Source of the DNA: an uncultured Desulfobacteraceae bacterium
GTDB taxonomy: Bacteria > Desulfobacterota > DSM-4660 > Desulfatiglandales > HGW-15
Length of the DNA stretch: 64,000 nucleotides
Reading direction: 5' to 3'
NCBI GenBank assembly: GCA_964580575.1
Contig: CAZOLJ010000006.1
Span: 825-64,824, forward strand
The notes under the pieces are model-generated. The model did no database searches. It was not told the origin of the DNA and was given only the letters and a program-made list of their open reading frames with translations. This document shows positions 38,257-49,868 of the stretch, in pieces. Both the position numbers and the translations under genes were made by a program. Position 1 is the stretch's first letter; each line of letters starts with the position of its first letter.

Positions 38257-38290
38257 ATGCTTCTTTGGAATTTGAAGAGAAGTCTTGCGG

Positions 38291-39604
38291 CTATTCTTCT
38301 TCCTCCTCTTCCCCCTCCTCGTCAAAAACGATCTCATCCCTTTCGTACTGGGCATCCCTCAGGGCATGAGCTTTTTCCACTTCCTCTTGGCTCCAGGGCT
38401 CCACGATGAGCGAGTCGGCCACGAGCTCCCACAGGTATTTGGTCTCGATGTCCAGGCCGAATTCCTTGGTTAGGCCTTTCATGATCTGGTCGCGACAGTT
38501 GTGGCAGGGCGCAATGACCAGTTTCGCTCCTGTGTCCTTGATCTGTTGGGCCTTAACCCTTCCGTAGTAAATCCTCTCGTCCGAATAGGGCATGGCCCAT
38601 GCTCCGCCGCCGGCTCCGCAGCAGTAGTTGTTCATCCGGTTGGGGTCCATGTCGACAAAACGCTCGCAGCACTGCTGGGTGATCCACCTCGGCTCTTCAA
38701 AGTAGCCGTGACCGAAAGCTTTCTGACTCTTCCTGCCATAGTTGCAGGGATCATGCACGGTCGCGAGTTCCTCATGGATCGTTTTATCCAATTTGATTCT
38801 TCCCGTCTCGATGTATTCTTTGAGAAGATCGTGAACGGAGACGACCTTGTATTTCTTGAAAACTTCGGGATACCAGTTTTGCAGACCAAGCCTGGTCGCA
38901 TAGTAGGCGTGCCCTCACTCCGGCAAAAGGAGCGTCTTGCACTCCAGCCTTTCCATGTGTTCGACGATGCGGCCCACGAGCGTCTTCATGGACTCGTCAT
39001 CGCCCGAGAAGAGGCCCCAGTTCACTCCCTCCCAGTTGTAGGAGGGCACGGTCCAGTCCTCCTTGGCCGCATAAAAAATGCGCCACCAGAATTTCATGTC
39101 ATCGGGCTCGCCGAAAGGCTCCTTGGAATTGACGGTGATCAGCACATTGGCACCCTTTTTGTCCACAGGCACATAGAACCCTGGGAAACCATCCGCTTCA
39201 AGCTCTTTGCCCAGGTCGGCGAGAAGAAAAAGGAAATCCGCCTTGGGAATCCCAAGGTTGTTCCCCCTGTTCAGATCCATGACCACGCCCTTGTGGATAG
39301 GGCCGGGGACCTTGTCTCTCGCGCGAAGGGTCCTGGCCCTTCGCATCATCTTGAGGATTTCCACGCCCTGGGGACAGGCGTATTCGCAACGGCCGCACAG
39401 GGTGCAGATCCAGGGGAACCTCGAATCAATGAGCTCCTGGTCCAATCCCAGGGCAGCCATACGCACGGCCTTACGCGGGTCCATGTTGTCGACGCCGGTA
39501 ACCGGGCAACCGCTGGCGCAGGTGCCGCAGGTGAAACAGACATCCGCCCACTCGGGAGACACTCTCAGTTTGCTTTCTTTACGGTTAATCACAACGGGTT
39601 CCAT
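38291..39604 (-). CDS. HdrD/DsrK/GlpC-like Fe-S (CCG-domain) oxidoreductase with selenocysteine (UGA at 38915-38917 recoded)
   Basis: Track ORFs 38915-39604 and 38291-38791 are in one frame. Translating through gives '...KTLLLPE-U-GHAYYATRLGLQNWYPEVF...'. The N-terminus has 2x[4Fe-4S] (CxxCxxCxxxCP); the C-terminus has 'NYCCGAGGG' and 'PCHNC' (CCG domain). Hairpin GACCA-GGCU-UGGUC lies 17 nt after the UGA (plus coordinates 38884-38897). Acidic poly-E tail. Confidence 0.8.
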
Positions 39605-39701
39605 TCAGTTCCTCCTTTTCCTAATAACATCCCAGCCCTGCAAACACCCTACGCCTTCATTGCGCGGTGTCTCTTGAGGGCGCGGAGCAAAAAACAGCAT
39701 G

Positions 39702-40091
39702 CTAACGGCTCAGGAATTTCTTGATCTGCGCAAGAAGTTTTTCTTTGTCCACGGGTTTGTCAAAAAAGGCGTCAGGGCTGAAGTACTCGTCGTCCCTCTC
39801 CTTTTCATATCGGACCCCCAACTCGTCCGCCATGCCTGAAATCCCGATGACGGGGGTGTTCTTGAGATCAGGGTCTGTTTTGATCCGCTTGCAGACTTCA
39901 AAACCCGAATACAAGGTCTCCATCATCACATCGAGCAGGACGAGGTCCGGATGCTCTTTTTGAGCCAATTCGACACCCTTCTTCCCGTCTTGTGCGGTCA
40001 GTGTTGCGAAACCATTGCGTTTCAAAAATGTTTCGGTGGTGAAAAGGAAATCGGGGTTGTCATCGATGATTAAAATCTTTTTAGATCCCAT
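39702..40091 (-). CDS. Single-domain response regulator (receiver)
   Basis: 'ILIIDDNPD...LLDVMME...K' receiver; 129 aa. Confidence 0.85.
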   Translation of the reverse strand: MGSKKILIIDDNPDFLFTTETFLKRNGFATLTAQDGKKGVELAQKEHPDLVLLDVMMETLYSGFEVCKRIKTDPDLKNTPVIGISGMADELGVRYEKERDDEYFSPDAFFDKPVDKEKLLAQIKKFLSR

Positions 40092-40130
40092 ATTCCTTCC
40101 TCTCTTTTTTCGACACAGACGACCAACGTC

Positions 40131-40982
40131 CTAGTATTCGGAGGGCATTTGTTTGAGCTGCGCCAGAGAAAAGACCGGTCCGTCCTTGCACACGTACTGG
40201 TCTCCAATGTTGCAGCGACCGCAAATGCCGACGCCGCATTTCATGCGCATTTCCAGAGAGAGAATAATCCGCTCCGGGGGAAACCCCAGTTTCTCCAACA
40301 CGGGTTGAGTGAACTTGATCATGACCGGCGGTCCGCACACAATGGCAATGGCGTTTTCCGCGTTCTTAATTTTTCGCTCCGTAATGGTGGGCACAAATCC
40401 CACGTTGTATTTCCAATTCGGATCATTCGTGCTGTCCACGGTGATGTGCATGTGAATGTCGTCCCTCTGCTCCCAGACAGCGAGTTCCTCCTTGTAAAGG
40501 AGCATTCCCGGGCTTCGGGCTCCGTACACCACCATGATGTCCTTGAATCGCGACCGGTTGTCCGGATGAAGCATGTAGACAATGCTGGAGCGAAGGGTGG
40601 TGAAAGCGAAACCGCCGCCCACGATGACCACATTCCTTCCCTCCATCTCCTCCCAGGGGTACCAGTTTCCCAGAGGGCCACGGATCCCCATCACTTCGCC
40701 CTCTTTCATGTTGTGAAGGTAGGTGGTCACCTGGCCGACCTTGTTCACGGTAAAGGCGACAAATCCCTTTTCCGTCGGGGAGGAGGCGATGCCGATCGGG
40801 ATCTCCCCTTTCCCTGCGATGGAGAGCTCTGCAAACTGACCCGGAGTATAGGCGAACTTCCTTTCGTCCTCAGGATCAAGGAAAACGAACCTGAAAGTCT
40901 TCAGGTTCTTGTCTTCGGTCTCCGTGACGATCTTGTCGATTCGGACCGGGTAAGGAAGATAGGGATTTTGCATCAGACTCAT
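40131..40982 (-). CDS. FAD/NAD(P)-binding oxidoreductase with C-terminal 2Fe-2S (PyrK/AsrB/FlxA-like)
   Basis: Ferredoxin-reductase fold ('PGQF..L', 'GPLG', 'V.GGGFA') and C-terminal 'MKCGVGICGRCN'. The start may be the internal Met at 40973. Confidence 0.8.
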   Translation of the reverse strand: MSLMQNPYLPYPVRIDKIVTETEDKNLKTFRFVFLDPEDERKFAYTPGQFAELSIAGKGEIPIGIASSPTEKGFVAFTVNKVGQVTTYLHNMKEGEVMGIRGPLGNWYPWEEMEGRNVVIVGGGFAFTTLRSSIVYMLHPDNRSRFKDIMVVYGARSPGMLLYKEELAVWEQRDDIHMHITVDSTNDPNWKYNVGFVPTITERKIKNAENAIAIVCGPPVMIKFTQPVLEKLGFPPERIILSLEMRMKCGVGICGRCNIGDQYVCKDGPVFSLAQLKQMPSEY

Positions 40983-40996
40983 ACTCCTTCTTCAAT

Positions 40997-41100
40997 CTGG
41001 AGTGATGGAGTGATGGAGTAGTGGAGTGTTGGGTTGAACAATTCAAGAAACCATCGATGACCTTCCATCACTCCAGTGCTCCAATACTCCAGTGCTCCAT
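40997..41100. repeat. Intercistronic hairpin element A built from degenerate 8-nt tandem repeats (TGGAGYRN)
   Basis: Left arm 40997-41033 is CTGGAGTGATGGAGTGATGGAGTAGTGGAGTGTTGGG. Right arm 41065-41100 is CCATCACTCCAGTGCTCCAATACTCCAGTGCTCCAT (inverted copies). 31-nt spacer. Confidence 0.6.
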
Positions 41101-41102
41101 TC

Positions 41103-42140
41103 TTAGTATCCATTCATCAATTCAAACACTTTTCGAATATCGATGTTGACAGGACAAAACTGAACACATCGCCCGCACCCGACGCATGCCGGCCCGTTCC
41201 TATACTTGTCTGCGTAATACTTCAGCTTGTGCATAAACCGCTGCCGGACCCGTTGGAGCTTTTTGTCCCGGGGATTGTGGCCGGACCCGTGCAGGGTGAA
41301 GAGCGGAAACATGCAGGCGTCCCAATTCCGGATCCTGTCCCCTTCTTTTCGGTAGACTTCGTCCTGGATGTCAAAGCACCAGCAGGTGGGACAAAGAAAC
41401 GTGCAGGTTCCGCAGTTGATGCACGCAAAAGAGACCCTCTCCCAGAAAGGGGCATTGAAAAGCTCATTGACCACTTTTCCCCGAAGCTGCTCCGTGGGCA
41501 CCTTGGAGGAGATTTTTTTCTCCGCCGCTCGGGGAAGGCTTAACGCCTTCTTGAGGAGAGCATCGTCGGCCTCTGTTCCGAAATCGACCTTTTCCAGGAA
41601 AGCCTCGCCCTTGGGCGTGAGGCTTCTCACCAGGTAACGGTCGCCCAGGTCGACCATGAGCGCATCCAGGCCTTTCTCGCTGAAGGGGCCGTTTCCCACA
41701 GAGGTGCAAAAGCAGGAGGCACAGGGGTCGTTGCAGCTGAAGCCGACAAGGGTGGTGGACTCCATGCGGCGGACCCACCACGGGTCTTGGAACTGAGGAT
41801 TGTCGAAATTGATCCTCACCAATTCAAAAGCAAAAGCGTCACAAGGCCTTATTCCCACGATCACCTGGGGAGAGAAGTCCTTCGCCGCTTCCTTGACGAC
41901 GTGCGCGTCCTCTTTGCTCTCGTCCAGAGTGTACTCGAACATCCGCTCTGACTGCGGAAGGATAACCGACTTCGGGGAAAGCCTGGTGTTCTGGAACTCA
42001 AAATTGGGCTTTCGACCGTTTTCCAGAAGCCTGAAGTTGTGGAAGTCCCCTTCCTTCACGGGGACAAACACCTTGTAAGCGCTTTGCAACCCTCTCAGTG
42101 CCTCAGTCCACTTTTCCTTGCTAAATGACTTTTTAAGCAT
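41103..42140 (-). CDS. 4Fe-4S dicluster protein (AsrA/FlxB-like)
   Basis: 'CINCGTCTFLCPTCWC' and 'CVGCGRCVQFCPVNI'. ATG at 42140; the track ORF start at 42254 reads through repeat element B. Confidence 0.7.
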   Translation of the reverse strand: MLKKSFSKEKWTEALRGLQSAYKVFVPVKEGDFHNFRLLENGRKPNFEFQNTRLSPKSVILPQSERMFEYTLDESKEDAHVVKEAAKDFSPQVIVGIRPCDAFAFELVRINFDNPQFQDPWWVRRMESTTLVGFSCNDPCASCFCTSVGNGPFSEKGLDALMVDLGDRYLVRSLTPKGEAFLEKVDFGTEADDALLKKALSLPRAAEKKISSKVPTEQLRGKVVNELFNAPFWERVSFACINCGTCTFLCPTCWCFDIQDEVYRKEGDRIRNWDACMFPLFTLHGSGHNPRDKKLQRVRQRFMHKLKYYADKYRNGPACVGCGRCVQFCPVNIDIRKVFELMNGY

Positions 42141-42152
42141 AACGCGAATCCT

Positions 42153-42254
42153 TAGGAGTATTGAATGCTGGAGTATTGGAGTCCTGGAGTGCTGGAGTAG
42201 TGGTGGAATAAAGAAAAAGAGAATATCCAGTACTCCAAGACTCCAGCAATCCAA
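42153..42254. repeat. Intercistronic hairpin element B (TGGAGYRN tandem repeats plus inverted copies)
   Basis: Left 42153-42206: TAGGAGTATTGAATGCTGGAGTATTGGAGTCCTGGAGTGCTGGAGTAGTGGTGG. Right 42227-42257: CCAGTACTCCAAGACTCCAGCAATCCAATCA. Confidence 0.6.
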
Positions 42255-43205
42255 TCATTTGACAAAGTCGTTATAGTCGTCCACTCGGTAAACATCCAGA
42301 GGCGGCCGCTGATCCATGCGGGTTCCGGCCTCCCAGCCGAAGAGCTCAAAAGCATCCTTGTTCAGCTTTTTGGTGAACGGCCTCATGGAGATCCCCACGG
42401 GGCAAACCCGTTCGCAAGCCCCGCAGTCCGTGCACCTTCCGGCACAATGGTAGGCTCGCAAAAAATGAAAGGTCATGGTGTCTACAGGGTCCGTGCTCTT
42501 CCCCACCCACTGGGGCCGCGACTCATCAACAAAGCAGGTCGGACAGTAGCAGAGAGGGCAGGCGTTCCGGCACGCGTAGCATCTGAGGCAGGATGAAATG
42601 AGCTGAGTGAAAAACTTCCGTTTTTCCTCGGGGCTCTTTCTCTCCAACACGTCAACGTCTTTGAAGGCGTTGACGCCCTCTTGTTCCGGCACCGGGTCGG
42701 CGACCATCTCGTCGTATTCCACAGGGTTCCGATGAAGGCAAGTGGAGCAATTGGTCCTCAAGAAATCTTTTTTCTTGAAGGTCTCCTGAAAACCGTTTCC
42801 GCTCACCGTGAAGGAGTCCTTGCTTTCAGTGACCTCCAAAATTTCTTTATTCCCCATCGTCCTCTTCACGGCTCGGTGGTCGATCATGCCGGTGCAGGGA
42901 ACGCCCACGATGTAAAGCTGTTCCCGCTTAATCTGGTTTTCGATGATGTGGGTCACGATGCTTCTGGAATTGCATCCATTGGCCACAATTCCGACGCGGT
43001 CGGTGCGCTTAGTCAGATAATTGCAGAGGTTCAGACCACAGTGGCTGTCCCAGTGAAGCAGGTCCACCTCCGCAGGATGCTTGATCAGCACCGGTTCATT
43101 CATCATGGGCACTGAGCCCTTCTGGTAGCCGATGAAAACGTCGACGGTTCCCTTCTCCAGGAGCTTTCGAGCGATGTCTCTGATTTTCTGAGTATACTCA
43201 AGCAT
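42255..43205 (-). CDS. FrhB/FdhB-N-terminal-like Fe-S protein (FlxC-like)
   Basis: 'CLRCYACRNACPLCYCPTCF' and 'CTDCGACERVCPVGI' with an N-terminal FrhB-like region. ATG overlaps the mvhD stop (TGATG). Confidence 0.7.
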   Translation of the reverse strand: MLEYTQKIRDIARKLLEKGTVDVFIGYQKGSVPMMNEPVLIKHPAEVDLLHWDSHCGLNLCNYLTKRTDRVGIVANGCNSRSIVTHIIENQIKREQLYIVGVPCTGMIDHRAVKRTMGNKEILEVTESKDSFTVSGNGFQETFKKKDFLRTNCSTCLHRNPVEYDEMVADPVPEQEGVNAFKDVDVLERKSPEEKRKFFTQLISSCLRCYACRNACPLCYCPTCFVDESRPQWVGKSTDPVDTMTFHFLRAYHCAGRCTDCGACERVCPVGISMRPFTKKLNKDAFELFGWEAGTRMDQRPPLDVYRVDDYNDFVK

Positions 43206-43636
43206 CAAACCACCTCAGCTCTTTTCTTAACAAGATAAGTTGCCTGACCGGTCTCCTTAACCGCCTTGATGACTTCGGTGGCAACCTCCACGAACTTCGT
43301 TGCTTCGGCAGAGGAAATCCACGAAAAGTGCAGCCTTCCCGGTTCCATCCCCACATGCTCGATCAGATTCTTGAACAGAGCGAACTTGCGTCTTGCGAAG
43401 TAATTACCTTCCAGGTAATGGCAGTCGCCCGGGTGTCACCCGGAAACCCAGACGCCGTCGGCGCCGTGCCGGAAGGCGGCGAGGATGAATTTGGGGCTCA
43501 CCCGGGCAGAGCAGGGCACCCGAATGACCCGGATATTGGATGGGTACTGGAAGCGGCTGACCCCTGCCAGGTCTGCCGCGCCATAGCTGCACCAGTTGCA
43601 CAAGAATGCAGTTATCTTAGGTTGCCAATCGTTCAT
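43205..43636 (-). CDS. mvhD: MvhD/FlxD-like protein with selenocysteine (UGA at 43436-43438 recoded)
   Basis: The track ORF ends at '...[10 protein letters not shown]'. Read-through gives '[23 protein letters not shown]...' to TGA at 43205. The Cys paralogue at 12848 has 'GVYVAGCLEGDCHF'. Hairpin AUUACCU-GGA-AGGUAAU lies 16 nt after the UGA (plus 43403-43419). Confidence 0.8.
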
Positions 43637-43654
43637 AGATAGCTCCTCAGCTCA

Positions 43655-43749
43655 AGAGTGACAAGTGACGAGTGACAAGTGACAAGTGACAAGCAACGAA
43701 GGCCAAAATCAAGATCCACAGACTCTCGTGACTTGTGACTTGTCACTCT
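43655..43749. repeat. Intercistronic hairpin element C built from 7-nt tandem repeats (GTGACRA)
   Basis: Left 43655-43694: AGAGTGACAAGTGACGAGTGACAAGTGACAAGTGACAAGC. Right 43725-43749: CTCGTGACTTGTGACTTGTCACTCT. The outer 12 bp (43655-43666 with 43738-43749) are perfectly complementary. Confidence 0.6.
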
Positions 43750-43753
43750 CTTC

Positions 43754-46700
43754 TCACATTTCATTGATCATGGCCATGATCTGCCCTTCCTCAAATCCCT
43801 TGAGGTTGAGCGCTCCCGAGCGGCAGGACGCCACGCACAGCCCACAGCCCTTGCAGAGCACCGGATTGACCTCCGCCTTTCCCGTGAAAGGGCCCTTCTG
43901 GATAAAGGAGGTCGCCGAATAAGGGCAGATCTCCACACAGACCCCGCAGCTGCTGCAGACGACAGGGGTCGCATAGGCGACCATACCGCTCACCGCGATG
44001 GTCTTTCTGGCCAGCAGGGTGACCGCTCTGGAGGCGGCCGCCTGGGCCTGGGCCACCGACTCATCAATGGGCTTCGGATAGTGGGCCATACCGCAAAGGA
44101 AGACGCCGTCCGTGGCAAACTGGGACGGACCGAGCTTGGCATGAGCCTCCACAAAAAAGCCGTCCTCGCTCAAAGGAACCTTGAAAAACTGGGCAAGCTT
44201 TTCGTCCTTGTAGGGAACAATGGCAGAGGCCAGGGCAAGCAAATCCGCCTTGATCAGGATGGGCCGTTGGAGGACGTGATCCATCACCTCGATCTCAAGG
44301 CCCTCTTTGCCGGCAGAGACTTTCGGTTTCTGTGAAATGGAGAACCGAATGAAGAGGATCCCCGCTTCTCGCGCCTCCCTGTAAAGGAGTTCCCGCTCCC
44401 CGTAGGTTCGGATATCCCGGTTGAGAATGTAAACATCCATGGCTGGGTTCAGTTCTTTGAGGTGGAGGGCGCTCTCGATGGAGTGGGTGCAGCAGACCCT
44501 CGAACAATAAGGCCTTTGGGGTTCGCGCGAACCCACGCATTGGATGAACACGGCTGTTTGAATCTTCTTGATCGACGGATCGCGATCGATGAACCTGCGG
44601 TCGAGCTCCTGGTGAGTCACCACGAGGGGGTGCTTCCCGTAAAGGTATTCCTCGGGCTTGTATTCATAGCATCCCGTGGCGAGCACGGCGATTCCATGTT
44701 CAAGGGTCCCCTGGAGGGTGCTGGACTGAAACGTGGTCTTGAAGCTTCCCACAAAACCTTCGACCTGGGTCAACTCGGCTCCGAGGTGGACCCGGATGTT
44801 TTTATCCCCTTGGACCGATTGCACAAGGCCCCCAAGATTTTTCTGGATATCTTCCCCCTGCCATGTCCTGTAAAGGTTCAGAGCCTGACCGCCCAGTACG
44901 GGAGCTTTCTCGACGATGTCCACCTCATAGCCCTGGTCGCTTAGGGTTTTTGCCGCCACCATACCGGAGATGCCGCCGCCGATCACGAGGGCCCGCTGGT
45001 TGATATCCAGCACGGCCTCTGGGAGGGATTCCATAAGAGCGACCTTGGCCACGGCCATGCGCACGAGGTCCTTGGCTTTGTCCGTCGCCTCCTGAGGATT
45101 GTCTTTGTGAACCCAGGAGTCCTGGTTGCGGATGTTGGTCATCTCGAAGAGATATTTGTTGAGGCCTGCGGTGACCAACGTCTCCTGGAACAGGGCTTCG
45201 TGGGTCTTGGGCGTGCATGCGGCCACCACGATCCGGTTGAGGGTGTTCGCCTTGATCACCTGGGCCATGGTGTCCTGAGTGTCCTGCGAGCAGGAGTAGA
45301 GGTTATCCGCCACGTACTCAACGTAGGGGAGGGTCTTCGCGTAGTCACGCACCGCCGGGACATTCACCACGCTGCCGATGTTGATGCCGCAATTGCAGAC
45401 AAACACTCCGATGCGAGGCCGCTCCCCCCGAATGTCCTTCTGCTCGGGCACTTCTTTCGCCTTGGTCAAGGTATTGCGAGCGCCGCTCAAAAGGGCTCCT
45501 GCCCGGGCAGCGGCCGAACTCGCTTCGATTACGGACTGGGGGATGTCCTTGGGCCCCTGGAAAGCGCCGCACACATAGATGCCTTCCCTGGATGTGGCCA
45601 CCGGAGCGAAGGAACTTGTCCTGCAGAACTGCGACCCTGTGAGGTCGATGCCGAGCTTGTCGGCCAATTCCATGACCTGCGGGGAGGTCTCGAGCCCCAC
45701 GGAGAGGACGACCATGTCAAAAGCCTCCTGGCGAAATTCACCGTCTTCAGTGGCATACTTGACACTGAGATCCTCGGTCAGCGGCATGGCCTCAACGGAG
45801 TGAACGCGGGACCGGATGAACCGAACCCCGTGTTTTTCCCGAGCGGCGTCGTAGTACCTTTCGAACTCCTTCCCGTGGGTCCGCATGTCCATATAGAAGA
45901 TGGCGCAATCGAGATTAGATCCTGAATGCTCCTTGGCGATCACCGCCTCTTTGATGGCATACATGCAGCAGACAGAGGAGCAGTAGGGATGGTCGCATTG
46001 GTGCATGTCCCTGGACCCGACGCACTGGAGCCAAGCGATCTTCTTGGGTTCCTTGTGATCGGACATGCGGGCGAGATGCCCCAGGGTAGGACCGGACGCT
46101 GAAAGGATCCTCTCGAACTCCATGGAAGTGACCACGTTCGGGAGCTTGGCGTAGCTGTAAGTATCGTACTTGGAGGGGTCAAAGGGTTGAAAACCTGGTG
46201 CAAGGATGATCGCTCCCACATCCAGTTCAATGATTTCATCCTTTTGAGAATGATCGATCGCCCCGACACCGCAAAATTCCGCACAGATCTTGCAGCCGCC
46301 GGTCTTGAAATGGATGCACATGCTCCTGTCTATGGCCGGCGTGTTGGGAATAGCCTGAGCGTAGGGAACGTAGATAGGCTTCCGGCCCTTGAGGCCCATA
46401 TCGTATTCGGAAGGAATGGGCTTCACCGAATGTTTGGTGATGTCTTCCAGTCTGATGTGCCCGGTCGGACAGACCGATGCACAGGCCCCGCACCCCATGC
46501 AGAATTCGGTCTGGATGTGAAACGGCGTATCGACCTTCATCTCGGTGCCGCGACCGGTCAGGCTGATGGCGGCATTTCCCATCCTCTCGCAGATCCTGGT
46601 GCAAAGTCCGCAAAGGATACAATCATCGTTCTCTTTCTTGAATCGGGGTTCTTCAAGGTCGTATTTTTTTGCCAGTTCCCTTAGAACGGGGACCTCCGGG

Positions 46701-46987
46701 CAACGGGCCAGAAGCAGCTCCACGAGCAACTTTCGACCCTTGTGAACGGCCTCCGTGTCCGTCTTGACCTCCATGCCTTCCCATATGGGGTAATTGCAGG
46801 ACGTGACAAAACGGGTCCGCCGTCCGTCGAAGACCTCCACAGTGCATAACCGGCACATTCCTGCAGGCTCCAGGGCCTTGTGGTGGCACAAAGTCGGGAT
46901 CTCGATCCCATATTTTTGTGCAATCTGGAGGATGTATTGTCCCTCTTCTCCTTGGACCGTTTTTCCGTTCATCTTGAAAGTAATCAT
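43754..46987 (-). CDS. Fusion protein: NuoG-N-terminal-like (2Fe-2S plus Fe-S) and HdrA-like flavoprotein lacking the first HdrA N-terminal module
   Basis: N-terminal 'MITFKMNGK......CHH....P.G.CR.C.VEV' (Fer2_4/NuoG type). Then HdrA body 'FERILSASGPTLGH...WLQCVGSRD...YCSSVCCMYAIKEA', a second Rossmann 'VIGGGISGM' and C-terminal 2x[4Fe-4S]. Confidence 0.85.
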   Translation of the reverse strand: MITFKMNGKTVQGEEGQYILQIAQKYGIEIPTLCHHKALEPAGMCRLCTVEVFDGRRTRFVTSCNYPIWEGMEVKTDTEAVHKGRKLLVELLLARCPEVPVLRELAKKYDLEEPRFKKENDDCILCGLCTRICERMGNAAISLTGRGTEMKVDTPFHIQTEFCMGCGACASVCPTGHIRLEDITKHSVKPIPSEYDMGLKGRKPIYVPYAQAIPNTPAIDRSMCIHFKTGGCKICAEFCGVGAIDHSQKDEIIELDVGAIILAPGFQPFDPSKYDTYSYAKLPNVVTSMEFERILSASGPTLGHLARMSDHKEPKKIAWLQCVGSRDMHQCDHPYCSSVCCMYAIKEAVIAKEHSGSNLDCAIFYMDMRTHGKEFERYYDAAREKHGVRFIRSRVHSVEAMPLTEDLSVKYATEDGEFRQEAFDMVVLSVGLETSPQVMELADKLGIDLTGSQFCRTSSFAPVATSREGIYVCGAFQGPKDIPQSVIEASSAAARAGALLSGARNTLTKAKEVPEQKDIRGERPRIGVFVCNCGINIGSVVNVPAVRDYAKTLPYVEYVADNLYSCSQDTQDTMAQVIKANTLNRIVVAACTPKTHEALFQETLVTAGLNKYLFEMTNIRNQDSWVHKDNPQEATDKAKDLVRMAVAKVALMESLPEAVLDINQRALVIGGGISGMVAAKTLSDQGYEVDIVEKAPVLGGQALNLYRTWQGEDIQKNLGGLVQSVQGDKNIRVHLGAELTQVEGFVGSFKTTFQSSTLQGTLEHGIAVLATGCYEYKPEEYLYGKHPLVVTHQELDRRFIDRDPSIKKIQTAVFIQCVGSREPQRPYCSRVCCTHSIESALHLKELNPAMDVYILNRDIRTYGERELLYREAREAGILFIRFSISQKPKVSAGKEGLEIEVMDHVLQRPILIKADLLALASAIVPYKDEKLAQFFKVPLSEDGFFVEAHAKLGPSQFATDGVFLCGMAHYPKPIDESVAQAQAAASRAVTLLARKTIAVSGMVAYATPVVCSSCGVCVEICPYSATSFIQKGPFTGKAEVNPVLCKGCGLCVASCRSGALNLKGFEEGQIMAMINEM

Positions 46988-47009
46988 CGGTCAAATCCTT
47001 TTTTCCGCA

Positions 47010-48911
47010 CTATCCCACGACAATGGCATCGAACTTACAGGCGTCGTAGCAGATCCCGCACTTGACGCACTTTCCTTGGTCCAGTTGATGAACCTTTTTC
47101 TTGTCCCCCGCGATGGCTTCCTGGGGACACTTGAGAGCACACACGTGACACCCTGTGCAGGCCTGCTCGTCCACCTCATAGTGAAAGAGGGGTTTGCAGA
47201 CCCCAGCAAAGCATTTTTTGTCCTTAATGTGGGCCTCGTACTCATCACGAAAGTAGAGAATGGTGGTGAGAACCGGATTGGGAGCCGAGGTGCCCAGCCC
47301 GCAGAGGGAAAACTTCTGGATCATGCTCCCCAACTCTTCGAGCAGCTCGATGTCGCCTTCTTTACCCCTGCCCTCACAGATGCCCGTGAGCACATCGAGC
47401 ATTTGCTTGATTCCCTCCCGACAAGGGGTGCACTGGCCGCAGGATTCGCCGTTGAGAAAGTCAAGAAAGTAACGGGCCAGATCCACCATGCAAGTGTCCT
47501 GATCCATGACGATCATGCCGCCGGAGCCCATCATGGAACCTACCTTGGTCAGTTCATCAAAATCGACTTGAAGATCCAGGAACGCCTCCGGGATACAGCC
47601 CCCAGAAGGCCCTCCGGTCTGAACAGCCTTGAATTTTCGCTTTTTGGGAATCCCCCCTCCCATGTCGAAAATGATCTCCCGCAGAGGAGTGCCCATCGGC
47701 ACTTCAACCAGGCCGGTATTCTTCACTTTTCCAACGAGGCTGAACACCTTGGTGCCTTTGCTGTATTTCGTTCCCATGCCGGCGTACCATTCGGCCCCTT
47801 TGAGCATGATGACGGGAACGTTTGCGTAGGTTTCGACGTTGTTGAGATTGGAGGGACCGTCCCTGAATCCCTTTTCCACCGTGTGAACATACTTGGCCCT
47901 CGGTCTCCCAACCTTCCCCTGCAGCGAGGCCATGAGGGCTGTGGATTCTCCGCAAACGAATGCGCCAGCCCCGGTGGAGATCTTGATGCTGAAGCTGAAC
48001 CCGGAACCTGCGATGTTGTCCCCGAGCAACCCGAGATCCTCCGCTTGCCGGATGGCGTTGACGAGACGCTTCACCGCCAGTGGATACTCATTGCGCACAT
48101 AGATGTAGCCCTGAGCCGATCCAATGGCGTAGGCCGCTATCAGCATTCCTTCCAGGACGCTGTGGGGATCTCCCTCCAGCACACTCCTGTCCATATAAGC
48201 CCCTGGGTCGCCCTCATCGGCATTACAGATGACATACCGCTCTCCGCGGTGTTTGCGACAGCTCTCCCATTTTATTCCCGTAGGAAATCCGCCGCCGCCC
48301 CGACCCCTCAGACCGGACTTCTTGATGCTTGTGATGATATCCTCAGGTTTCATTTCAGCGAGGACACGGGTGAAAGCGAAATAGCCTCCTCTCCCAATAT
48401 ATTCCTGGACGCTCTGAGGATCGATGTAGCCGCAATTGCGCAAGGCGACCTTGACTTGCCGAGAATAAAACGGGATTTCTTCCAAGAAGGGGATCGCTTT
48501 GAGGGGTTTCACCTTTTCGAGGGGGTTCCGGATGTCTTCCTCAAGGACGGATCGGGGGTCTCGCATCTGGCCAAGGATCAACTTCTTGCTGAACTTCTCT
48601 TCCGTGTAGTCTTGAACAACATCCAAGACCCTATCCTCGGTCACCCGTTTGTACACGACCCTCGGTCGCCCCTTTGCCACTATCTCCACCAGAGGCTCTT
48701 CTTCGCAAAAGCCGAGACAACCGGTTTGCCGAACTTGAAAAGAGTGAGCTTCAGGATACTCTTTCAGCGCTTTTTCGAAGGTCGCTTTGGCTCCGGCAGC
48801 GATCCCGCAGGACGCCATTCCCACATTGAGCATCATGGTCTCTGGGTAGTAGAGTTTCTGACTATACTCTGAAGTGATCTTTTCCAGATCTTTCACCGAG
48901 TGGATTTTCAT
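47010..48911 (-). CDS. NuoF/HydB-like NADH-binding FMN Fe-S flavoprotein
   Basis: 'GRGGGGFPTG.KW' (FMN), 'CNADEGDPGA', 'ESCGQCTPCREG' and C-terminal 2x[4Fe-4S] ferredoxin motifs; 633 aa. Confidence 0.9.
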   Translation of the reverse strand: MKIHSVKDLEKITSEYSQKLYYPETMMLNVGMASCGIAAGAKATFEKALKEYPEAHSFQVRQTGCLGFCEEEPLVEIVAKGRPRVVYKRVTEDRVLDVVQDYTEEKFSKKLILGQMRDPRSVLEEDIRNPLEKVKPLKAIPFLEEIPFYSRQVKVALRNCGYIDPQSVQEYIGRGGYFAFTRVLAEMKPEDIITSIKKSGLRGRGGGGFPTGIKWESCRKHRGERYVICNADEGDPGAYMDRSVLEGDPHSVLEGMLIAAYAIGSAQGYIYVRNEYPLAVKRLVNAIRQAEDLGLLGDNIAGSGFSFSIKISTGAGAFVCGESTALMASLQGKVGRPRAKYVHTVEKGFRDGPSNLNNVETYANVPVIMLKGAEWYAGMGTKYSKGTKVFSLVGKVKNTGLVEVPMGTPLREIIFDMGGGIPKKRKFKAVQTGGPSGGCIPEAFLDLQVDFDELTKVGSMMGSGGMIVMDQDTCMVDLARYFLDFLNGESCGQCTPCREGIKQMLDVLTGICEGRGKEGDIELLEELGSMIQKFSLCGLGTSAPNPVLTTILYFRDEYEAHIKDKKCFAGVCKPLFHYEVDEQACTGCHVCALKCPQEAIAGDKKKVHQLDQGKCVKCGICYDACKFDAIVVG

Positions 48912-48932
48912 GTTTCAGCCTCTTGTTGGATC

Positions 48933-49430
48933 CTATTCGTATCCGCCCAGGATTTTCGTGGCTTCATCAGGGGACAGCCGGGCGTGAACAGCCTCATTAA
49001 TTTTGACTACAGGTCCGAGACTGCAGCAGCCGATGCAGCGCACGGATTCAAGGGTGAAGCGTCCGTCTCCCGTGGTCTGCCCATCATGGATATGCAACTG
49101 TTCTTGTATCTGCTCATGAACCCGCTTGGCCCCTCTGACATGGCACGCTGTCCCCAGGCAAACCGTAATCAGATTGCGTCCGCGCGGCTCCAGGCTGAAG
49201 GTAGCGTAGAACGTCGCAATTCCATAGATCTGACTCAGGGGAACACCGACTTTTTCCGCAAGATAGGTGAGGCTTGGTCTAGGGAGGTAATTGTAGCGCC
49301 TCTGTATGGCCTGAAGCATCATGATCAGATTTTCTTTGTCATTGCCAAATTGGGATTCGATCAAATTGTCCAGTTCAAAGTAATCCAATTCATCGGCAGA
49401 AGCAGTCTGCACCGGACGCACCTCATTCAT
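48933..49430 (-). CDS. NuoE/HoxE-like 2Fe-2S thioredoxin-fold subunit
   Basis: 'VCLGTACHVRGA' and 'CIGCCSLGPV'; 165 aa. Confidence 0.9.
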   Translation of the reverse strand: MNEVRPVQTASADELDYFELDNLIESQFGNDKENLIMMLQAIQRRYNYLPRPSLTYLAEKVGVPLSQIYGIATFYATFSLEPRGRNLITVCLGTACHVRGAKRVHEQIQEQLHIHDGQTTGDGRFTLESVRCIGCCSLGPVVKINEAVHARLSPDEATKILGGYE

Positions 49431-49454
49431 TCCCCAGTCCTCCTCTCCTGCAAT

Positions 49455-49868
49455 CTACGCCCTGGTTGTCTGATCCGTACGGGGAACACCAACCGCTTGA
49501 TTGACGACAGGGCAGTTTTCAACGCACACGCCGCAGCCTGTGCACAGATCCATGTTGATGCTCCGGGCCCGTTTTCTTATTTTCACTTTGAAATCTCCAG
49601 GGCTTCCTTCTACGGACTCAAGATCAGAGTAAGTGATGAGCTCGATATTAAGATGCCGGCCGACCTCGACCAGTTTGGGGGAGATGATTCACATGGCGCA
49701 GTCGTTGGTGGGAAAGGTCTTGTCCAATTGAGCCATGGCCCCGCCGATGGCAGGGGATTTCTCAAGAAGGTAGACATAATACCCGGAATCCGCCAAATCA
49801 AGGGCGGACTGCATCCCTGCGATACCCCCGCCCACAACCAGAACCGATCCTTTCACGCTGCTGGACAT
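49455..49868 (-). CDS. Stand-alone HdrA N-terminal module with selenocysteine (UGA at 49689-49691 recoded)
   Basis: '[47 protein letters not shown]...' continues to '[12 protein letters not shown]' and TAG at 49455. It aligns to residues ~10-120 of the HdrA at 9804 ('FPTNNCDLCTLSP'). Hairpin CUGGUCG-AGGU-CGGCCGG lies 15 nt after the UGA (plus 49656-49673). Confidence 0.75.

What the first reader, a model, noticed from the sequence alone, without database searches (positions are those of the whole stretch)
38291..49868. Nine-gene operon combining NuoE/F(G)-like NADH module, HdrA, MvhD, FlxCBA-like and HdrD-like subunits, three of them selenoproteins
The minus-strand gene order is: Sec-HdrA-N, nuoE-like, nuoF-like, nuoG/hdrA fusion, Sec-mvhD (flxD-like), flxC-like, flxB-like, flxA-like, a receiver-only response regulator, Sec-HdrD-like. 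Gaps are short or the genes overlap. Flx(Flox)ABCD-HdrABC clusters are known NADH-linked heterodisulfide-reductase systems in sulfate reducers. This version differs in three ways. It carries two independent NAD(H)-binding entry modules (NuoEF and FlxA). It uses an HdrD/DsrK-type catalytic subunit instead of HdrBC. It has Sec at three thiol positions. It looks like a flavin-based electron-bifurcating or confurcating complex with an unknown disulfide substrate (a DsrC-like protein?).
Basis: partly seen in the sequence, partly recalled or inferred. Interest (0 to 1): 0.7.

Follow-up and report, generated by a model that had tools for sequence, protein, structure and literature searches.

The report
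Split HdrA–NuoEFG–Flx selenoprotein redox cluster
A ten-gene cluster from an uncultured sulfate-reducer-like bacterium most likely encodes a large soluble electron-bifurcating enzyme that joins two different bifurcation modules and three selenoproteins; it is an uncharacterised relative of the Flx-Hdr and class II benzoyl-CoA reductase systems, and it may link NAD(P)H and ferredoxin to DsrC.

Summary
Window 38291-49868 (minus strand) holds ten co-directional genes, not nine. They are hdrA-N (Sec), nuoE, nuoF, a nuoG-N::tandem-hdrA fusion, mvhD (Sec), flxC, flxB, flxA, a receiver-only regulator, and a DsrK-type hdrD (Sec).

All three UGA codons align with Cys in homologues. They are conserved in 63/65, 58/61 and 80/80 orthologues. 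Each is followed by a hairpin whose synonymous sites are frozen.

New findings:
- HdrA-N is the detached N-terminus of unit 1 of a BamE-like tandem HdrA.
- nuoE, nuoF and nuoG-N lie inside that gene, exactly within the "inserted ferredoxin" domain. This domain is the low-potential port in solved Hdr and BCRII structures.
- In other genomes the same site carries a GltD-like NADPH domain or a formate dehydrogenase.
- The eight-gene core is conserved in at least 26 Desulfobacterales/Desulfatiglandales genomes.
- There it is usually followed by dsrC (28 loci) or hdrCB (4 loci).
- The RR–Sec-HdrD tail is specific to this clade.
- The HdrD Sec sits at the proposed catalytic Cys of the DsrK E-C-G-H motif.

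The best reading is a Flx-Hdr/BCRII-like multi-flavin bifurcating complex that connects NAD(P)H, ferredoxin and a DsrC-type (tri)sulfide. Direction and stoichiometry are unknown. It is a new variant of a known kind.

The parts
50097..50126 (-). sigma-70-like promoter candidate (TTGACA-18-TATGTT) upstream of hdrA-N
   Evidence: It matches 10 of 12 consensus positions. It lies downstream of a terminator-like hairpin that follows the upstream multi-receiver gene. It is a consensus match only; function is not shown.
49458..49868 (-). hdrA-N: 136-aa selenoprotein, the detached N-terminal part of HdrA unit 1. It carries the GxGxxG FAD fold, C57-x-x-U60, and the first CxxCxxCxxxCP motif of the inserted ferredoxin domain. 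The UGA is at 49689-49691.
   Evidence: It matches NCBIfam HdrA2 model positions 137-257, E=2.7e-47. It is collinear with residues 1-124 of the unsplit 1007-aa orthologue. TGA is present in 63/65 orthologues. The median dN/dS is about 0.05. It has its own RBS and a TAG stop.
49656..49673 (-). SECIS-type hairpin of hdrA-N (CUGGUCG-AGGU-CGGCCGG), 16-33 nt after the UGA
   Evidence: Fold. Synonymous positions are 0.95-1.00 conserved over this block in 61 distinct sequences, against 0.38-0.75 in the flanks.
48933..49430 (-). nuoE/hydC/bfuC-like [2Fe-2S] thioredoxin-like subunit (165 aa)
   Evidence: PF01257, E=3.4e-47. NuoE and HoxE models give E~1e-40.
47010..48911 (-). nuoF/hydB/bfuB-like FMN/NAD(H) subunit (633 aa) with an N-terminal Trx-like extension and a C-terminal 2x[4Fe-4S] domain
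   Evidence: Pfam domains. It aligns over its full length to the bifurcating HydB, StnB, NfnB and NiFe-Bfu B subunits (residues 27-632, E about 1e-203 to 1e-211). It aligns to complex I NuoF only over residues 164-566.
43754..46987 (-). Fusion protein (1077 aa). Residues 1-~185 form a NuoG/BamI-like domain with a [2Fe-2S] site (C34/45/48/64) and two [4Fe-4S] sites (C123-133, C163-173). Residues ~191-510 are the remainder of HdrA unit 1, with motif 2 of the inserted Fd domain (C224-C239), CSSVCC and K346. Residues ~515-1077 form a complete second HdrA unit, which has E838 in place of Lys.
   Evidence: Domain hits. More than 120 full-length homologue clusters share at least 70% identity. The alignment to the unsplit orthologue shows a single ~204-residue insertion directly after motif 1. 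The Cys ligands and K346 are invariant in 43 homologues.
43655..43749 (-). Intergenic hairpin built from tandem GTGACAA(G) repeats, between the fusion gene and mvhD
   Evidence: Inverted repeats I2-I4. The fold energy is -39.8 kcal/mol. There is no T-run, so it is not a canonical terminator.
43205..43636 (-). mvhD/flxD (143 aa) selenoprotein. The UGA at 43436-43438 replaces the first Cys of the G-C-H-x-G-D-C-H motif.
   Evidence: PF02662, E=7.6e-53. It matches MvhD chains of the Hdr structures, E=1e-44, and the Sec aligns to Cys in GGCHLGDCHY. TGA is present in 58/61 orthologues.
43403..43419 (-). SECIS-type hairpin of mvhD (AUUACCU-GGA-AGGUAAU)
   Evidence: Fold. Synonymous positions are 0.84-1.00 conserved, against 0.39-0.70 outside.
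42255..43205 (-). flxC-like Fe-S subunit (316 aa). Its start codon overlaps the mvhD stop codon by 1 nt.
   Evidence: Fer4_8. Its C-terminal half matches FdhB of the Fdh-MvhD-Hdr complexes (7bkb_E, E=3.7e-22). It has no NCBIfam family.
42163..42251 (-). Intergenic hairpin built from tandem CTCCAGNA repeats, between flxC and flxB
   Evidence: Inverted repeats I1 and I6. The fold energy is -36.9 kcal/mol, z=-6.1.
41103..42140 (-). flxB-like Fe-S subunit (345 aa), sulfhydrogenase-beta/AsrA type
   Evidence: Fer4_22, E=1e-33. HydB, ShyB and AsrA models give E~1e-44 to 1e-49. PDB 9nez_B aligns over its full length, E=2e-44.
40998..41083 (-). Intergenic hairpin built from tandem repeats, between flxB and flxA
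   Evidence: Inverted repeat I5. The fold energy is -39.1 kcal/mol.
40131..40982 (-). flxA-like FAD/NAD(P)H/[2Fe-2S] subunit (283 aa), sulfhydrogenase-gamma/AsrB type
   Evidence: FAD_binding_6 + NAD_binding_1 + DHODB_Fe-S_bind. PRK08345 gives E=1e-73.
39702..40091 (-). Receiver-only response regulator (129 aa) with a complete acidic pocket (D10, D11, D54, S84, K112)
   Evidence: PF00072, E=8.7e-20. The residues were read from the sequence. It is present between flxA and hdrD in L083, L091-L097, L100 and L101, and absent in L098.
38291..39604 (-). hdrD-like, DsrK/HmcF/TmcB-type soluble selenoprotein (437 aa). It has two cubane motifs, one complete CCG motif (C287...CC328/329G...C367xxC370), and P-E-U230-G-H. 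The UGA is at 38915-38917. The C-terminal tail is acidic.
   Evidence: HmcF, TmcB and DsrK models give E=6e-63, 5e-56 and 1.5e-48, all below their curated cutoffs. Alignment A1. TGA is present in 80/80 orthologues. The meaning of the motif comes from PMC10861901.
38880..38900 (-). SECIS-type hairpin of hdrD (GCGACCAG-GCUU-GGUCUGC)
   Evidence: Fold. Synonymous positions are 0.75-1.00 conserved, against 0.38-0.83 outside.
38237..38256 (-). Intrinsic-terminator-like hairpin (AAGGCCCCGAAAGGGGCCTT plus a T-rich tail) 35 nt after the hdrD stop
   Evidence: The next gene, feoB, is convergent.

Best explanation
The cluster encodes the subunits of one large soluble multi-flavin electron-bifurcating/confurcating complex. 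It is built from the same parts as FlxABCD-HdrABC and as the BamDEFGHI part of class II benzoyl-CoA reductase.

**Core.** The core is a BamE-like tandem HdrA. Its first unit carries the bifurcating FAD and is assembled from two polypeptides, HdrA-N and the fusion protein.

**Three arms meet at that flavin.**
1. FlxA (FAD, NAD(P)H), FlxB, FlxC and Sec-MvhD form the canonical entry arm for mid-potential electrons.
2. The Sec-containing DsrK-type HdrD forms the high-potential arm. It reduces a protein (tri/di)sulfide, most likely DsrC.
3. A HydBC/Bfu-type NuoE-NuoF module occupies the low-potential arm, which in other Hdr enzymes reduces free ferredoxin. It is tethered covalently through the NuoG-like domain spliced into the inserted ferredoxin domain. 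This module exchanges electrons with ferredoxin and NAD(H).

**Net function.** The complex couples NAD(P)H oxidation to reduction of a DsrC-type disulfide and to ferredoxin reduction. The second module sets the gearing between ferredoxin and NAD+. The reaction may also run in reverse.

**Shown.**
- Gene content, cofactor motifs, the split/insertion point and the three Sec codons.
- Conservation of the core and its neighbourhood.

**Inferred.**
- That the products form one complex.
- Which arm is input and which is output.
- The identity of the disulfide.
- Direction and stoichiometry.
For: - **Family assignments:**
- **Core conservation:** the eight genes hdrA-N to flxA keep their order in at least 26 genome loci across Desulfobacterales and Desulfatiglandales. 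The fusion protein has more than 120 full-length homologue clusters.
- **Split site:** the split concatenate aligns to an unsplit 1007-aa orthologue at 73% identity. There is one ~204-residue insertion, right after motif 1 of the inserted Fd domain.
- **Collinearity with BamE:** that orthologue has C57/U60, K278 and E768. BamE has C59/C62, K280 (bifurcating FAD) and Q768 (non-bifurcating FAD).
- **K346** is invariant in 43 homologues.
- **hdrA-N** is under strong purifying selection, dN/dS ~0.05.
- **Role of the port:** in the Hdr and BCRII structures the inserted Fd domain is the low-potential output, and MvhD/BamF is the entry adaptor.
- **A module port:** the same site carries a GltD/NfnB-like NADPH domain (L047) or a Sec-FdhA (L055) in paralogous clusters.
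- **NuoF** aligns over its full length with bifurcating HydB-type subunits.
- **FlxC** resembles the FdhB region of Fdh-MvhD-Hdr complexes.
- **After flxA:** dsrC follows in 28 loci and hdrC-hdrB in 4 loci. NuoEF-HdrAA'-HdrCB clusters without Flx also exist.
- **HdrD:** it has the single CCG motif and the E-[C/U]-G-H motif of DsrK/HmcF/TmcB. In 4 of the 5 contexts examined its homologues lie next to tandem HdrA + MvhD.
- **Transcription signals:** one promoter-like site upstream and one terminator downstream.
Against: - There is no expression, protein or activity data.
- dsrC is not in this window.
- In this clade the tail is RR-HdrD, whereas most relatives encode neither HdrD nor HdrBC beside the cluster.
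- The same Sec-HdrD orthologue (81-98% identity) lies next to MetFV-HdrAA'-MvhD or other HdrAA' clusters in other genomes. It may therefore be a shared or free-standing enzyme.
- In BCRII the homologous BamD has lost disulfide chemistry and passes electrons to ETF.
- Two NAD(P)H sites in one bifurcating enzyme have no simple thermodynamic rationale unless their nucleotide specificities differ.
- Three 114-120-nt intergenic hairpins could split the transcript.
- The AF2 model of the fusion alone is uninformative across the junction, with pLDDT 25-34 over residues 117-259.
Confidence: 0.55

Rival explanations
1. The complex is a transhydrogenase or redox-balancing hub without disulfide chemistry. 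It interconverts NADH, NADPH and ferredoxin in an Nfn/Stn-like way. NuoF would bind NAD(H) and ferredoxin, and FlxA would bind NADP(H). HdrD would be only an electron-transfer outlet to another carrier such as ETF, as BamD is in BCRII.
For: - BamD, the HdrD homologue in BCRII, no longer binds a heterodisulfide and reduces ETF.
- Most orthologous clusters encode no HdrBC or HdrD in cis.
- The insertion site carries a GltD/NfnB-like NADPH domain in the HdrL-type paralogue.
- FlxBA resemble the NADPH-linked sulfhydrogenase beta and gamma subunits.
- Stn/Nfn-Bfu enzymes show that a HydBC-type core can serve transhydrogenation.
Against: - HdrD keeps a complete CCG motif and a Sec at the E-C-G-H position in 80/80 orthologues. 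That is costly to maintain for simple electron transfer.
- dsrC or hdrCB directly follow flxA in 32 of 43 informative loci.
- No etf genes were found among the window ORFs that were scanned.
Confidence: 0.2
2. The cluster encodes two or three separate enzymes that are merely co-located. These would be a NuoEF-HdrAA' enzyme, an MvhD-FlxCBA NAD(P)H:acceptor oxidoreductase, and an independent RR plus Sec-DsrK-like disulfide reductase that serves several HdrA systems or works alone.
For: - NuoEF-HdrAA'-HdrCB clusters exist without MvhD or Flx (L031, L032, L043), and HdrAA'-MvhD-FlxCBA clusters exist without NuoEF (L050, L060, L067).
- Sec-HdrD changes neighbourhood between genomes.
- Long hairpins separate fusion|mvhD, flxC|flxB and flxB|flxA.
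Against: - In every solved system MvhD works only as an adaptor bound to HdrA.
- mvhD always directly follows the tandem hdrA, and flxC is translationally coupled to it.
- The modular variants look like one scaffold with exchangeable arms rather than unrelated enzymes.
- No promoter-like site was found inside the cluster on the coding strand, apart from a weak one within nuoE.
Confidence: 0.18
3. This is the electron-supply module of a BCRII-like low-potential reductase, for example for aromatic or other difficult substrates. Its catalytic subunits would be encoded elsewhere.
For: The subunit set NuoE, NuoF, NuoG-N, tandem HdrA, MvhD and HdrD equals BamG, H, I, E, F and D. The key residues are collinear with BamE.
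Against: - No AOR/BamB or BamC-like gene was found among the window ORFs scanned or in the related loci examined.
- The port that binds BamBC in BCRII is here occupied by the fused NuoG-like domain.
- Flx genes replace the Bam catalytic genes.
Confidence: 0.05

Closest known systems
BamDEFGHI module of class II benzoyl-CoA reductase, Bam[(BC)2DEFGHI]2, of Geobacter metallireducens (Appel et al., bioRxiv 2026, doi 10.64898/2026.04.10.717634)
   Same: The same six protein kinds are present: a HydBC-type NuoE/NuoF pair (BamG/H); a NuoG-N domain with one [2Fe-2S] and two [4Fe-4S] sites (BamI); a tandem-fused HdrA with one bifurcating and one non-bifurcating FAD (BamE); an MvhD-type adaptor with Sec (BamF); and an HdrD-like subunit (BamD). 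The key residues are collinear: C57/U60, K278 and E768 against C59/C62, K280 and Q768.
   Different: There is no BamBC tungsten module. The NuoG-like domain is fused into the inserted ferredoxin domain of HdrA, where BamBC docks in BCRII, instead of feeding the C-terminal ferredoxin domain and MvhD. hdrA is split into two genes. MvhD has the normal 143-aa size, and its Sec is in the GCHxGDCH motif rather than at the BamF Sec19 position. An additional FlxCBA NAD(P)H module is present. HdrD keeps a Sec in the E-C-G-H motif.
FlxABCD-HdrABC NADH dehydrogenase/heterodisulfide reductase of Desulfovibrio vulgaris (Ramos et al. 2015, cited; properties from established knowledge)
   Same: It has a FlxA-type FAD/NAD(P)H/[2Fe-2S] protein, two FlxB/C-type Fe-S proteins, an MvhD (FlxD) and HdrA, and a proposed link to DsrC. 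Related loci end in hdrC-hdrB as Flx-Hdr does.
   Different: The gene order is reversed (hdrA...mvhD-flxC-flxB-flxA). HdrA is a tandem, split, Sec-containing BamE-like protein. A Bfu-type NuoEFG module is inserted. In this contig a DsrK-type Sec-HdrD replaces HdrBC. Orthology to the D. vulgaris Flx proteins was not tested.
MvhAGD-HdrABC and Fdh-MvhD-HdrABC complexes of methanogens (PDB 5odc, 7bkb, 8rvu)
   Same: The HdrA fold and cofactor motifs match (E~1e-150). MvhD matches at E~1e-44. The C-terminal half of FlxC resembles FdhB, the subunit that feeds MvhD.
   Different: The donor is not a hydrogenase or F420-Fdh. HdrA is tandem and split. The inserted ferredoxin domain is not free to reduce ferredoxin because it is fused to a NuoG-like domain. 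The disulfide subunit is of DsrK type, with one CCG motif.
HdrL of Desulfobacterium autotrophicum HRM2 (Strittmatter et al. 2009, PMC2702500)
   Same: It is a large Sec-containing HdrA-type protein followed by mvhD, with an NAD(P)H-binding glutamate-synthase-like domain. The paper reports dsrA, dsrB and dsrC genes following hdrL1 and mvhD. A protein of this build (L047) is a paralogue that carries its extra domain at the same insertion point.
   Different: In HdrL the inserted module is a single GltD/NfnB-like domain within one polypeptide. Here it is a three-protein Bfu module, and the gene is split.
Bfu family (HydABC, NiFe-HydABCSL, Stn/Nfn-Bfu; Schut et al. 2022, PMC9304861)
   Same: NuoF and NuoE have the full BfuB/BfuC architecture. 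The N-terminus of the fusion is a BfuA-like Fe-S domain.
   Different: The 'third substrate' domain fused to BfuA is itself a bifurcating HdrA. Within the main text of that catalogue and the one supplementary file held, Bam-Bfu is the only HdrA-containing type and no BfuA::HdrA fusion is named.
DsrK of DsrMKJOP, plus HmcF and TmcB (Barbosa et al. 2024, PMC10861901)
   Same: It has two cubane motifs, one CCG motif, and the conserved (T/G)-E-C-G-H motif with the proposed catalytic Cys, which is Sec here.
   Different: It is soluble, with no DsrM-like partner in the cluster. The motif reads P-E-U-G-H. It has an acidic C-terminal tail. Its scores are far below the equivalog cutoffs (213 against 750 bits for HmcF). 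It is associated with HdrA/MvhD rather than with a membrane cytochrome b.

Membership tests
HdrA-type bifurcating flavoprotein | TrxR-like FAD fold with an N-terminal GxGxxG motif and a CxxC(U) pair next to the flavin | tested here: met
   HdrA-N has VVGGGIAG and C57-A-M-U60, aligned to HdrA2 model positions 137-257. The fold is supplied in trans to the fusion, which lacks it for unit 1.
HdrA-type bifurcating flavoprotein | Conserved Lys at the flavin N5 (BamE Lys280) in the bifurcating unit | tested here: inconclusive
   K346 in CCMYAIK is invariant in 43 homologues. It falls at position 278 of the unsplit orthologue, against 280 in BamE. No direct alignment to BamE and no structure were available.
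HdrA-type bifurcating flavoprotein | Inserted 2x[4Fe-4S] ferredoxin domain and C-terminal ferredoxin domain | tested here: met
   Motif 1 is on HdrA-N (C106-C116) and motif 2 is on the fusion (C224-C239). The C-terminal Fer4 pair is at residues 1011-1059. The inserted domain is split between two polypeptides.
Class II benzoyl-CoA reductase (BamBCDEFGHI) | Tungsten AOR-type BamB with BamC as the catalytic module | tested here: not met
   No AOR-like ORF was found among the window ORFs scanned or next to the 80 related loci.
Class II benzoyl-CoA reductase (BamBCDEFGHI) | BamDEFGHI subunit set (HdrD-like, tandem HdrA, MvhD-like, NuoE, NuoF, NuoG-N) | tested here: met
   All six kinds are present. 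The wiring implied by the fusion differs.
Bfu / HydBC-type bifurcating NADH-ferredoxin module | BfuB with an N-terminal Trx-like [2Fe-2S] domain, an FMN/NADH core and a C-terminal 2x[4Fe-4S] domain; BfuC with a [2Fe-2S] site | tested here: met
   End-to-end alignments to 7t2r_B, 8oh5_B, 7q4v_B, 9n5u_B and 8a6t_B, with E about 1e-203 to 1e-211. PF01257 for NuoE.
Bfu / HydBC-type bifurcating NADH-ferredoxin module | Zn-stabilised hinge and the Asp near FMN N5 (BamH Asp219) | not tested
   Residue-level comparison with solved HydB/BamH was not done.
FlxABCD | FlxA = FAD/NAD(P)H/[2Fe-2S]; FlxB and FlxC = Fe-S proteins of the sulfhydrogenase-beta kind; FlxD = MvhD | tested here: met
   FlxC matches only generic Fer4 models plus the FdhB C-terminus.
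FlxABCD | Operon order flxABCD-hdrABC and orthology to the D. vulgaris proteins | tested here: not met
   The order here is hdrA...mvhD-flxC-flxB-flxA.
DsrK/HmcF/TmcB-type disulfide (DsrC-trisulfide) reductase subunit | Two cubane [4Fe-4S] motifs, a single CXnCCGXnCxxC motif, and a conserved Cys in (T/G)ECGH | tested here: met
   C23-C33 and C67-C77; C287, C328, C329, C367 and C370; P-E-U230-G-H, with Cys in 8 of 9 distant homologues. The criteria come from PMC10861901.
DsrK/HmcF/TmcB-type disulfide (DsrC-trisulfide) reductase subunit | Membrane partner (DsrM, HmcE or TmcC) and curated equivalog score | tested here: not met
   There is no membrane protein in the cluster. Scores are HmcF 213 bits (cutoff 750), TmcB 190 (735) and DsrK 166 (400). 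A second Sec-DsrK-like gene at 60246-61529 does have an adjacent membrane protein.
Bacterial selenoprotein genes | In-frame UGA aligned with Cys in homologues, followed by a SECIS hairpin about 15-35 nt downstream | tested here: met
   for all three genes. No Rfam SECIS model matched.
Bacterial selenoprotein genes | selA, selB, selC and selD present in the genome | not testable with these tools
   Only a 64-kb metagenome window is available.
Operon (single transcription unit) | One transcript spanning all ten genes | not testable with these tools
   Only sequence signals are available: one sigma-70-like site upstream, one terminator downstream, and three internal hairpins without T-runs.

The most novel reading that the evidence does not exclude
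The complex is a two-stage bifurcation machine of a kind not yet described. A HydBC/Bfu module is hard-wired onto the low-potential output of an HdrA flavin, rather than feeding it as in BCRII. Electrons from NAD(P)H that enter through Flx-MvhD are therefore split once at HdrA. The high-potential electron goes through a soluble selenocysteine DsrK-type subunit to DsrC-trisulfide. The low-potential electron is split again at the Bfu FMN between ferredoxin and NAD+. This would give complete-oxidising sulfate reducers a soluble, energy-conserving route for the last step of sulfate respiration, with adjustable gearing. The inserted ferredoxin domain of HdrA would act as a general plug-in port, since the same site carries NuoEFG, a GltD-like domain or FdhA.
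Probability: 0.25. Interest if true: 0.85.

Novelty: new variant of a known kind. Interest (0 to 1): 0.62.

Why it matters
How cytoplasmic NADH and reduced ferredoxin reach DsrC, and how much energy is conserved on the way, is still unresolved for the abundant complete-oxidising marine sulfate reducers.

This cluster is widespread in those lineages and in most of them sits directly upstream of dsrC. It combines two mechanistically different bifurcation modules. Such a combination has so far been demonstrated only in class II benzoyl-CoA reductase.

The hdrA gene is split by an inserted NuoEFG module at the same point where paralogues carry an NADPH domain or a formate dehydrogenase. This suggests a general design rule for building HdrA-based redox machines, with one scaffold and exchangeable arms. 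It also gives concrete targets for biochemistry and cryo-EM.

The Sec at the proposed catalytic Cys of a DsrK-type protein is present in 80 of 80 orthologues. This independently supports the proposed role of that residue.

Tried and rejected
1. **Sigma-54 promoter upstream of hdrA-N.** A sigma-54 activator and histidine kinases lie upstream, so I looked for one. No TGG-N9-TGC site occurs in this or 13 orthologous upstream regions, apart from one unrelated hit. The only good site in the area (TGGCACGACATATGCT, 51956-51971) precedes the multi-receiver gene, not the cluster.
2. **Rfam search for SECIS or other RNAs in 38000-50300.** It returned only sub-threshold miRNA-like hits on the three intergenic hairpins.
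3. **Whole-segment folding energies.** The 65 nt after each UGA fold no better than shuffles (z between -0.2 and +0.2). The SECIS evidence therefore rests on hairpin position and on synonymous-site conservation.
4. **dsrC in the window.** It is absent.
5. **hdrA-N as a pseudogene remnant.** Rejected, because dN/dS is ~0.05, Sec is conserved in 63/65 orthologues, and the gene has its own RBS.
6. **RR-HdrD as a regulatory pair.** The closest full-length HdrD homologues carry an N-terminal HTH_17 domain. I judged this unlikely, because those HTH-HdrD genes sit directly upstream of tandem-hdrA-mvhD-mvhGA hydrogenase clusters.
7. **AlphaFold2 model of the fusion.** Mean pLDDT is 68 and the junction region 117-259 scores below 35, so it gives no information on wiring. 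No fold search was run on it.
8. **Literature.** I found no paper that names or characterises this architecture. Genome papers only mention nuoEFG-mvhD-hdrA units. Appel et al. 2021 (BBA) and Pereira et al. 2011 are not held and could not be checked.

Full report
**Source and gene calls.** The window is part of a 68.9-kb contig from JGI metagenome 3300020048. The organism is uncultured. The nearest genome loci are 'uncultured delta proteobacterium' MAGs (86%) and Desulfatiglandaceae (77%). Reading the minus strand with TGA marked separately gives ten co-directional genes between 49868 and 38291. These are hdrA-N, nuoE, nuoF, a 1077-aa fusion, mvhD, flxC, flxB, flxA, a 129-aa receiver-only response regulator, and an hdrD-like gene.

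The title's 'nine' is a miscount.

The spacing is tight in most places. Four gaps are 21-39 nt, and mvhD and flxC overlap by 1 nt. Three gaps of 114-120 nt (fusion|mvhD, flxC|flxB, flxB|flxA) each hold a long hairpin made of short tandem repeats, at -37 to -40 kcal/mol and without a T-run. A sigma-70-like site (TTGACA-18-TATGTT) lies upstream at 50097-50126. A terminator-like hairpin lies 35 nt after hdrD.

**Selenocysteine.**
- Codon 60 of hdrA-N, in the context C-A-M-U: TGA in 63/65 orthologous loci, Cys codons in the other two.
- Codon 67 of mvhD, in the context G-U-H-P-G-D-C-H: TGA in 58/61, Cys in three.
- Codon 230 of hdrD, in the context P-E-U-G-H: TGA in 80/80 orthologues of 81-98% identity recovered from metagenomes.
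- More distant HdrD homologues (51-67% identity) carry Cys at that position in 8 of 9 cases.
- Each UGA is followed 16-34 nt downstream by a small hairpin with G in the first or second loop position.
- The folding energy of the whole segments is unremarkable. However, third-codon positions are 0.75-1.0 conserved across the hairpins and 0.38-0.83 outside them. That is the expected signature of a SECIS element.
- Sec in HdrA, MvhD and an HdrD paralogue of Desulfobacteraceae has been known since the D. autotrophicum genome paper. These are therefore new members of known selenoprotein families.

**The split hdrA.** HdrA-N matches HdrA model positions 137-257, and the fusion continues from position 257. 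An unsplit orthologue (L050, 1007 aa) aligns collinearly with HdrA-N plus the fusion at 73% identity. The single insertion is about 204 residues: the 12-residue tail of HdrA-N plus fusion residues 1-192. It lies immediately after the first CxxCxxCxxxCP motif of the 'inserted ferredoxin' domain.

So nuoE, nuoF and a NuoG/BamI-like domain (one [2Fe-2S] site and two [4Fe-4S] sites) have been inserted into the hdrA gene. The two halves of the inserted ferredoxin domain now sit on different polypeptides. HdrA-N is not a decaying fragment. Its dN/dS against 36 orthologues is about 0.05, and it has its own RBS and stop codon.

The rest of the fusion is a tandem HdrA. Unit 1 carries CSSVCC and an invariant Lys (K346). 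Unit 2 has Glu at the equivalent position. In the unsplit orthologue the landmarks fall at C57/U60, K278 and E768. In BamE of class II benzoyl-CoA reductase they fall at C59/C62, K280 (bifurcating FAD) and Q768 (non-bifurcating FAD). I could not align BamE directly, so this equivalence is an inference from collinearity.

**Comparative genomics.** The fusion protein has more than 120 full-length homologue clusters at 70% identity or more. A scan of one genome per species returned 80 loci, and tblastn synteny analysis followed.
- The eight-gene core hdrA-N to flxA is complete and in the same order in at least 26 loci. Named examples are Desulfobacterium sp. N47, Desulfonema limicola, Desulfatitalea alkaliphila, Desulfotignum, Desulfobacula and Desulfosarcinaceae. 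Many other loci are truncated by contig ends.
- Variants show that the scaffold is modular.
  - The unsplit tandem HdrA occurs with MvhD-FlxCBA and no NuoEF (L050, L060, L067).
  - The split/NuoEF form occurs followed directly by hdrC-hdrB, without MvhD or Flx (L031, L032, L043).
  - A single giant protein carries a GltD/NfnB-like NADPH domain at the same insertion point (L047). This is the HdrL build of Strittmatter et al..
  - Another form carries a Sec-formate dehydrogenase plus extra Fe-S proteins at that point (L055).
- Downstream of flxA, 28 of 43 informative loci have a 105-aa DsrC with the C-terminal CKMAGLPKPTGCV signature. Four have hdrC-hdrB and eleven have neither.
- The RR-hdrD tail seen in the window occurs only in its own clade: L083, L091-L097, L100 and L101. 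L098 has hdrD without the RR.

**The HdrD-like protein.** Its best curated matches are HmcF, TmcB and DsrK, all far below the equivalog cutoffs. It has two cubane motifs and one complete CCG motif. The first CCG domain is degenerate and retains only E-U-G-H. This is the pattern described for DsrK, HmcF and TmcB, where the Cys of (T/G)ECGH is proposed to be essential for DsrC-trisulfide reduction.

A second paralogue in the window (60246-61529, T-E-U-G-H) also has Sec at this position and sits next to a membrane protein.

Genomic contexts of homologues:
- HTH-tagged homologues of 54-63% identity directly precede tandem-hdrA-mvhD-mvhGA clusters in three genomes.
- A tail-sharing homologue follows an FdhA-NfnAB-like-tandem-hdrA-mvhD cluster.
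- The true orthologues lie next to MetF-HdrAA'-MvhD-MetV-MetF-RR clusters or other HdrAA'(-HdrCB) clusters in many contigs.

The protein is therefore a habitual neighbour of tandem-HdrA modules, but not exclusively of this one.

**Mechanism.** In the solved Hdr complexes and in BCRII, MvhD/BamF is the adaptor through which electrons enter the bifurcating FAD. HdrBC/BamD takes the high-potential electron. The inserted ferredoxin domain carries the low-potential electron, to ferredoxin or to BamBC.

Mapping the window's proteins onto that scheme gives three arms:
- FlxA-FlxB-FlxC-MvhD is the NAD(P)H-linked entry arm. FlxC resembles the FdhB region of Fdh-MvhD-Hdr complexes, and FlxB resembles sulfhydrogenase beta.
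- Sec-HdrD is the thiol/disulfide arm.
- The HydBC/Bfu-type NuoEF is tethered through the NuoG-like domain on the low-potential arm. NuoF aligns end to end with bifurcating HydB-type subunits, whereas complex I NuoF covers only the core.

Compared with BCRII, the Bfu module has moved from the input port to the port that binds BamBC, and Flx has taken the input port.

I commit to the following model. It is a soluble NAD(P)H/ferredoxin:DsrC-type (tri)sulfide oxidoreductase in which two bifurcation modules act in series. The Bfu module distributes low-potential electrons between ferredoxin and NAD+, or in reverse supplies confurcated electrons. Complex formation, direction, nucleotide specificity and substrate are inferred, not shown. 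My confidence is about 0.55.

The rivals are an Nfn/Stn-like transhydrogenase hub with HdrD as a mere outlet (as BamD is), several independent enzymes, and a BCRII-like supply module for an unlinked reductase. They are listed separately with their evidence.

**Comparison with the literature.**
- Genome papers have noted nuoEFG genes next to hdrA and mvhD in Desulfotignum phosphitoxidans and stand-alone NuoEFG in Desulfatiglans.
- The Bfu catalogue lists Bam-Bfu as the only HdrA-containing member in its main text and in the one supplementary file held.
- The 2026 BCRII preprint states that coexistence of two distinct bifurcation modules in one complex had not been reported before.
- I found no characterisation of the present architecture. 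Two key reviews (Appel 2021, Pereira 2011) are not held, so prior cataloguing cannot be excluded.

**Verdict.**
- This is a new variant of a known kind, widespread rather than unique to this contig.
- The split gene and plug-in port, the dsrC linkage and the Sec in the DsrK motif are the points of real interest.

Noticed in passing
window 8859-15390 (+), with 6922-8289 (-) and 8732-8747 (+): A second HdrA system is present: metF - unsplit tandem hdrA (1015 aa, 41% identical to the fusion, Cys instead of Sec) - mvhD - metV (DUF5981) - metF - receiver protein. A divergent PAS/sigma-54 activator lies upstream, with a sigma-54-like site (TGGCATAGCCTGTGCA). In other genomes the Sec-HdrD orthologue lies convergent to this cluster.
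   Followed up: partly
window 60246-61529 (-) and 61576-62241 (-): A second DsrK-like selenoprotein (427 aa) has an in-frame TGA at 60780-60782 in the motif T-E-U-G-H, plus an acidic C-terminal tail. It is preceded by a 221-aa hydrophobic protein with no Pfam hit, which may be a DsrM-like partner.
   Followed up: partly
window 43655-43749, 42163-42251, 40998-41083: Three intra-cluster intergenic hairpins have arms made of tandem 7-8-nt repeats (GTGACAAG; CTCCAGNA). They fold at -37 to -40 kcal/mol and lack a T-run. They give spurious miRNA-precursor hits in Rfam. They may be mRNA processing or stability elements. I did not check whether they are conserved in related loci.
   Followed up: partly
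window 50210-60180 (-), site at 51956-51971 (-): A block of signalling genes lies upstream of the cluster: PAS histidine kinases, a sigma-54 activator with a receiver domain, and a 573-aa multi-receiver protein. The multi-receiver gene has a good sigma-54-type site (TGGCACGACATATGCT) 25 nt before its ATG. It is conserved directly upstream of hdrA-N in at least 14 related loci.
   Followed up: partly
L084 17643-23234: In an 82%-identical relative, flxA is followed by a second, paralogous copy of the split module: hdrA-N with Sec, nuoE fused to a Fer4 domain, nuoF, and a 1082-aa nuoG::hdrA fusion. The locus ends before the downstream genes.
   Followed up: no
L047 9974-14416; L055 6545-12787: Paralogous tandem-HdrA genes carry other modules at the same point of the inserted ferredoxin domain. 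One is a GltD/NfnB-like NADPH domain within a single ~1480-aa Sec protein (HdrL type). The other is a Sec-formate dehydrogenase plus Fe-S proteins that split the gene.
   Followed up: partly
L085-L087 (genes at 8001-9480): HdrD homologues of 54-63% identity carry an N-terminal HTH_17 (excisionase/MerR-like) domain. They lie between a HycI-type protease gene and tandem-hdrA-mvhD(-mvhG-mvhA) genes. The role of a DNA-binding-type domain on an Fe-S/CCG protein is unexplained.
   Followed up: no
window 1204-3994 (+) and 35600-38228 (+): A catalase gene and a di-haem cytochrome c peroxidase gene are present in an apparently strictly anaerobic genome. A DtxR-type repressor with feoA/feoB lies immediately downstream of the cluster, convergent to it.
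   Followed up: no
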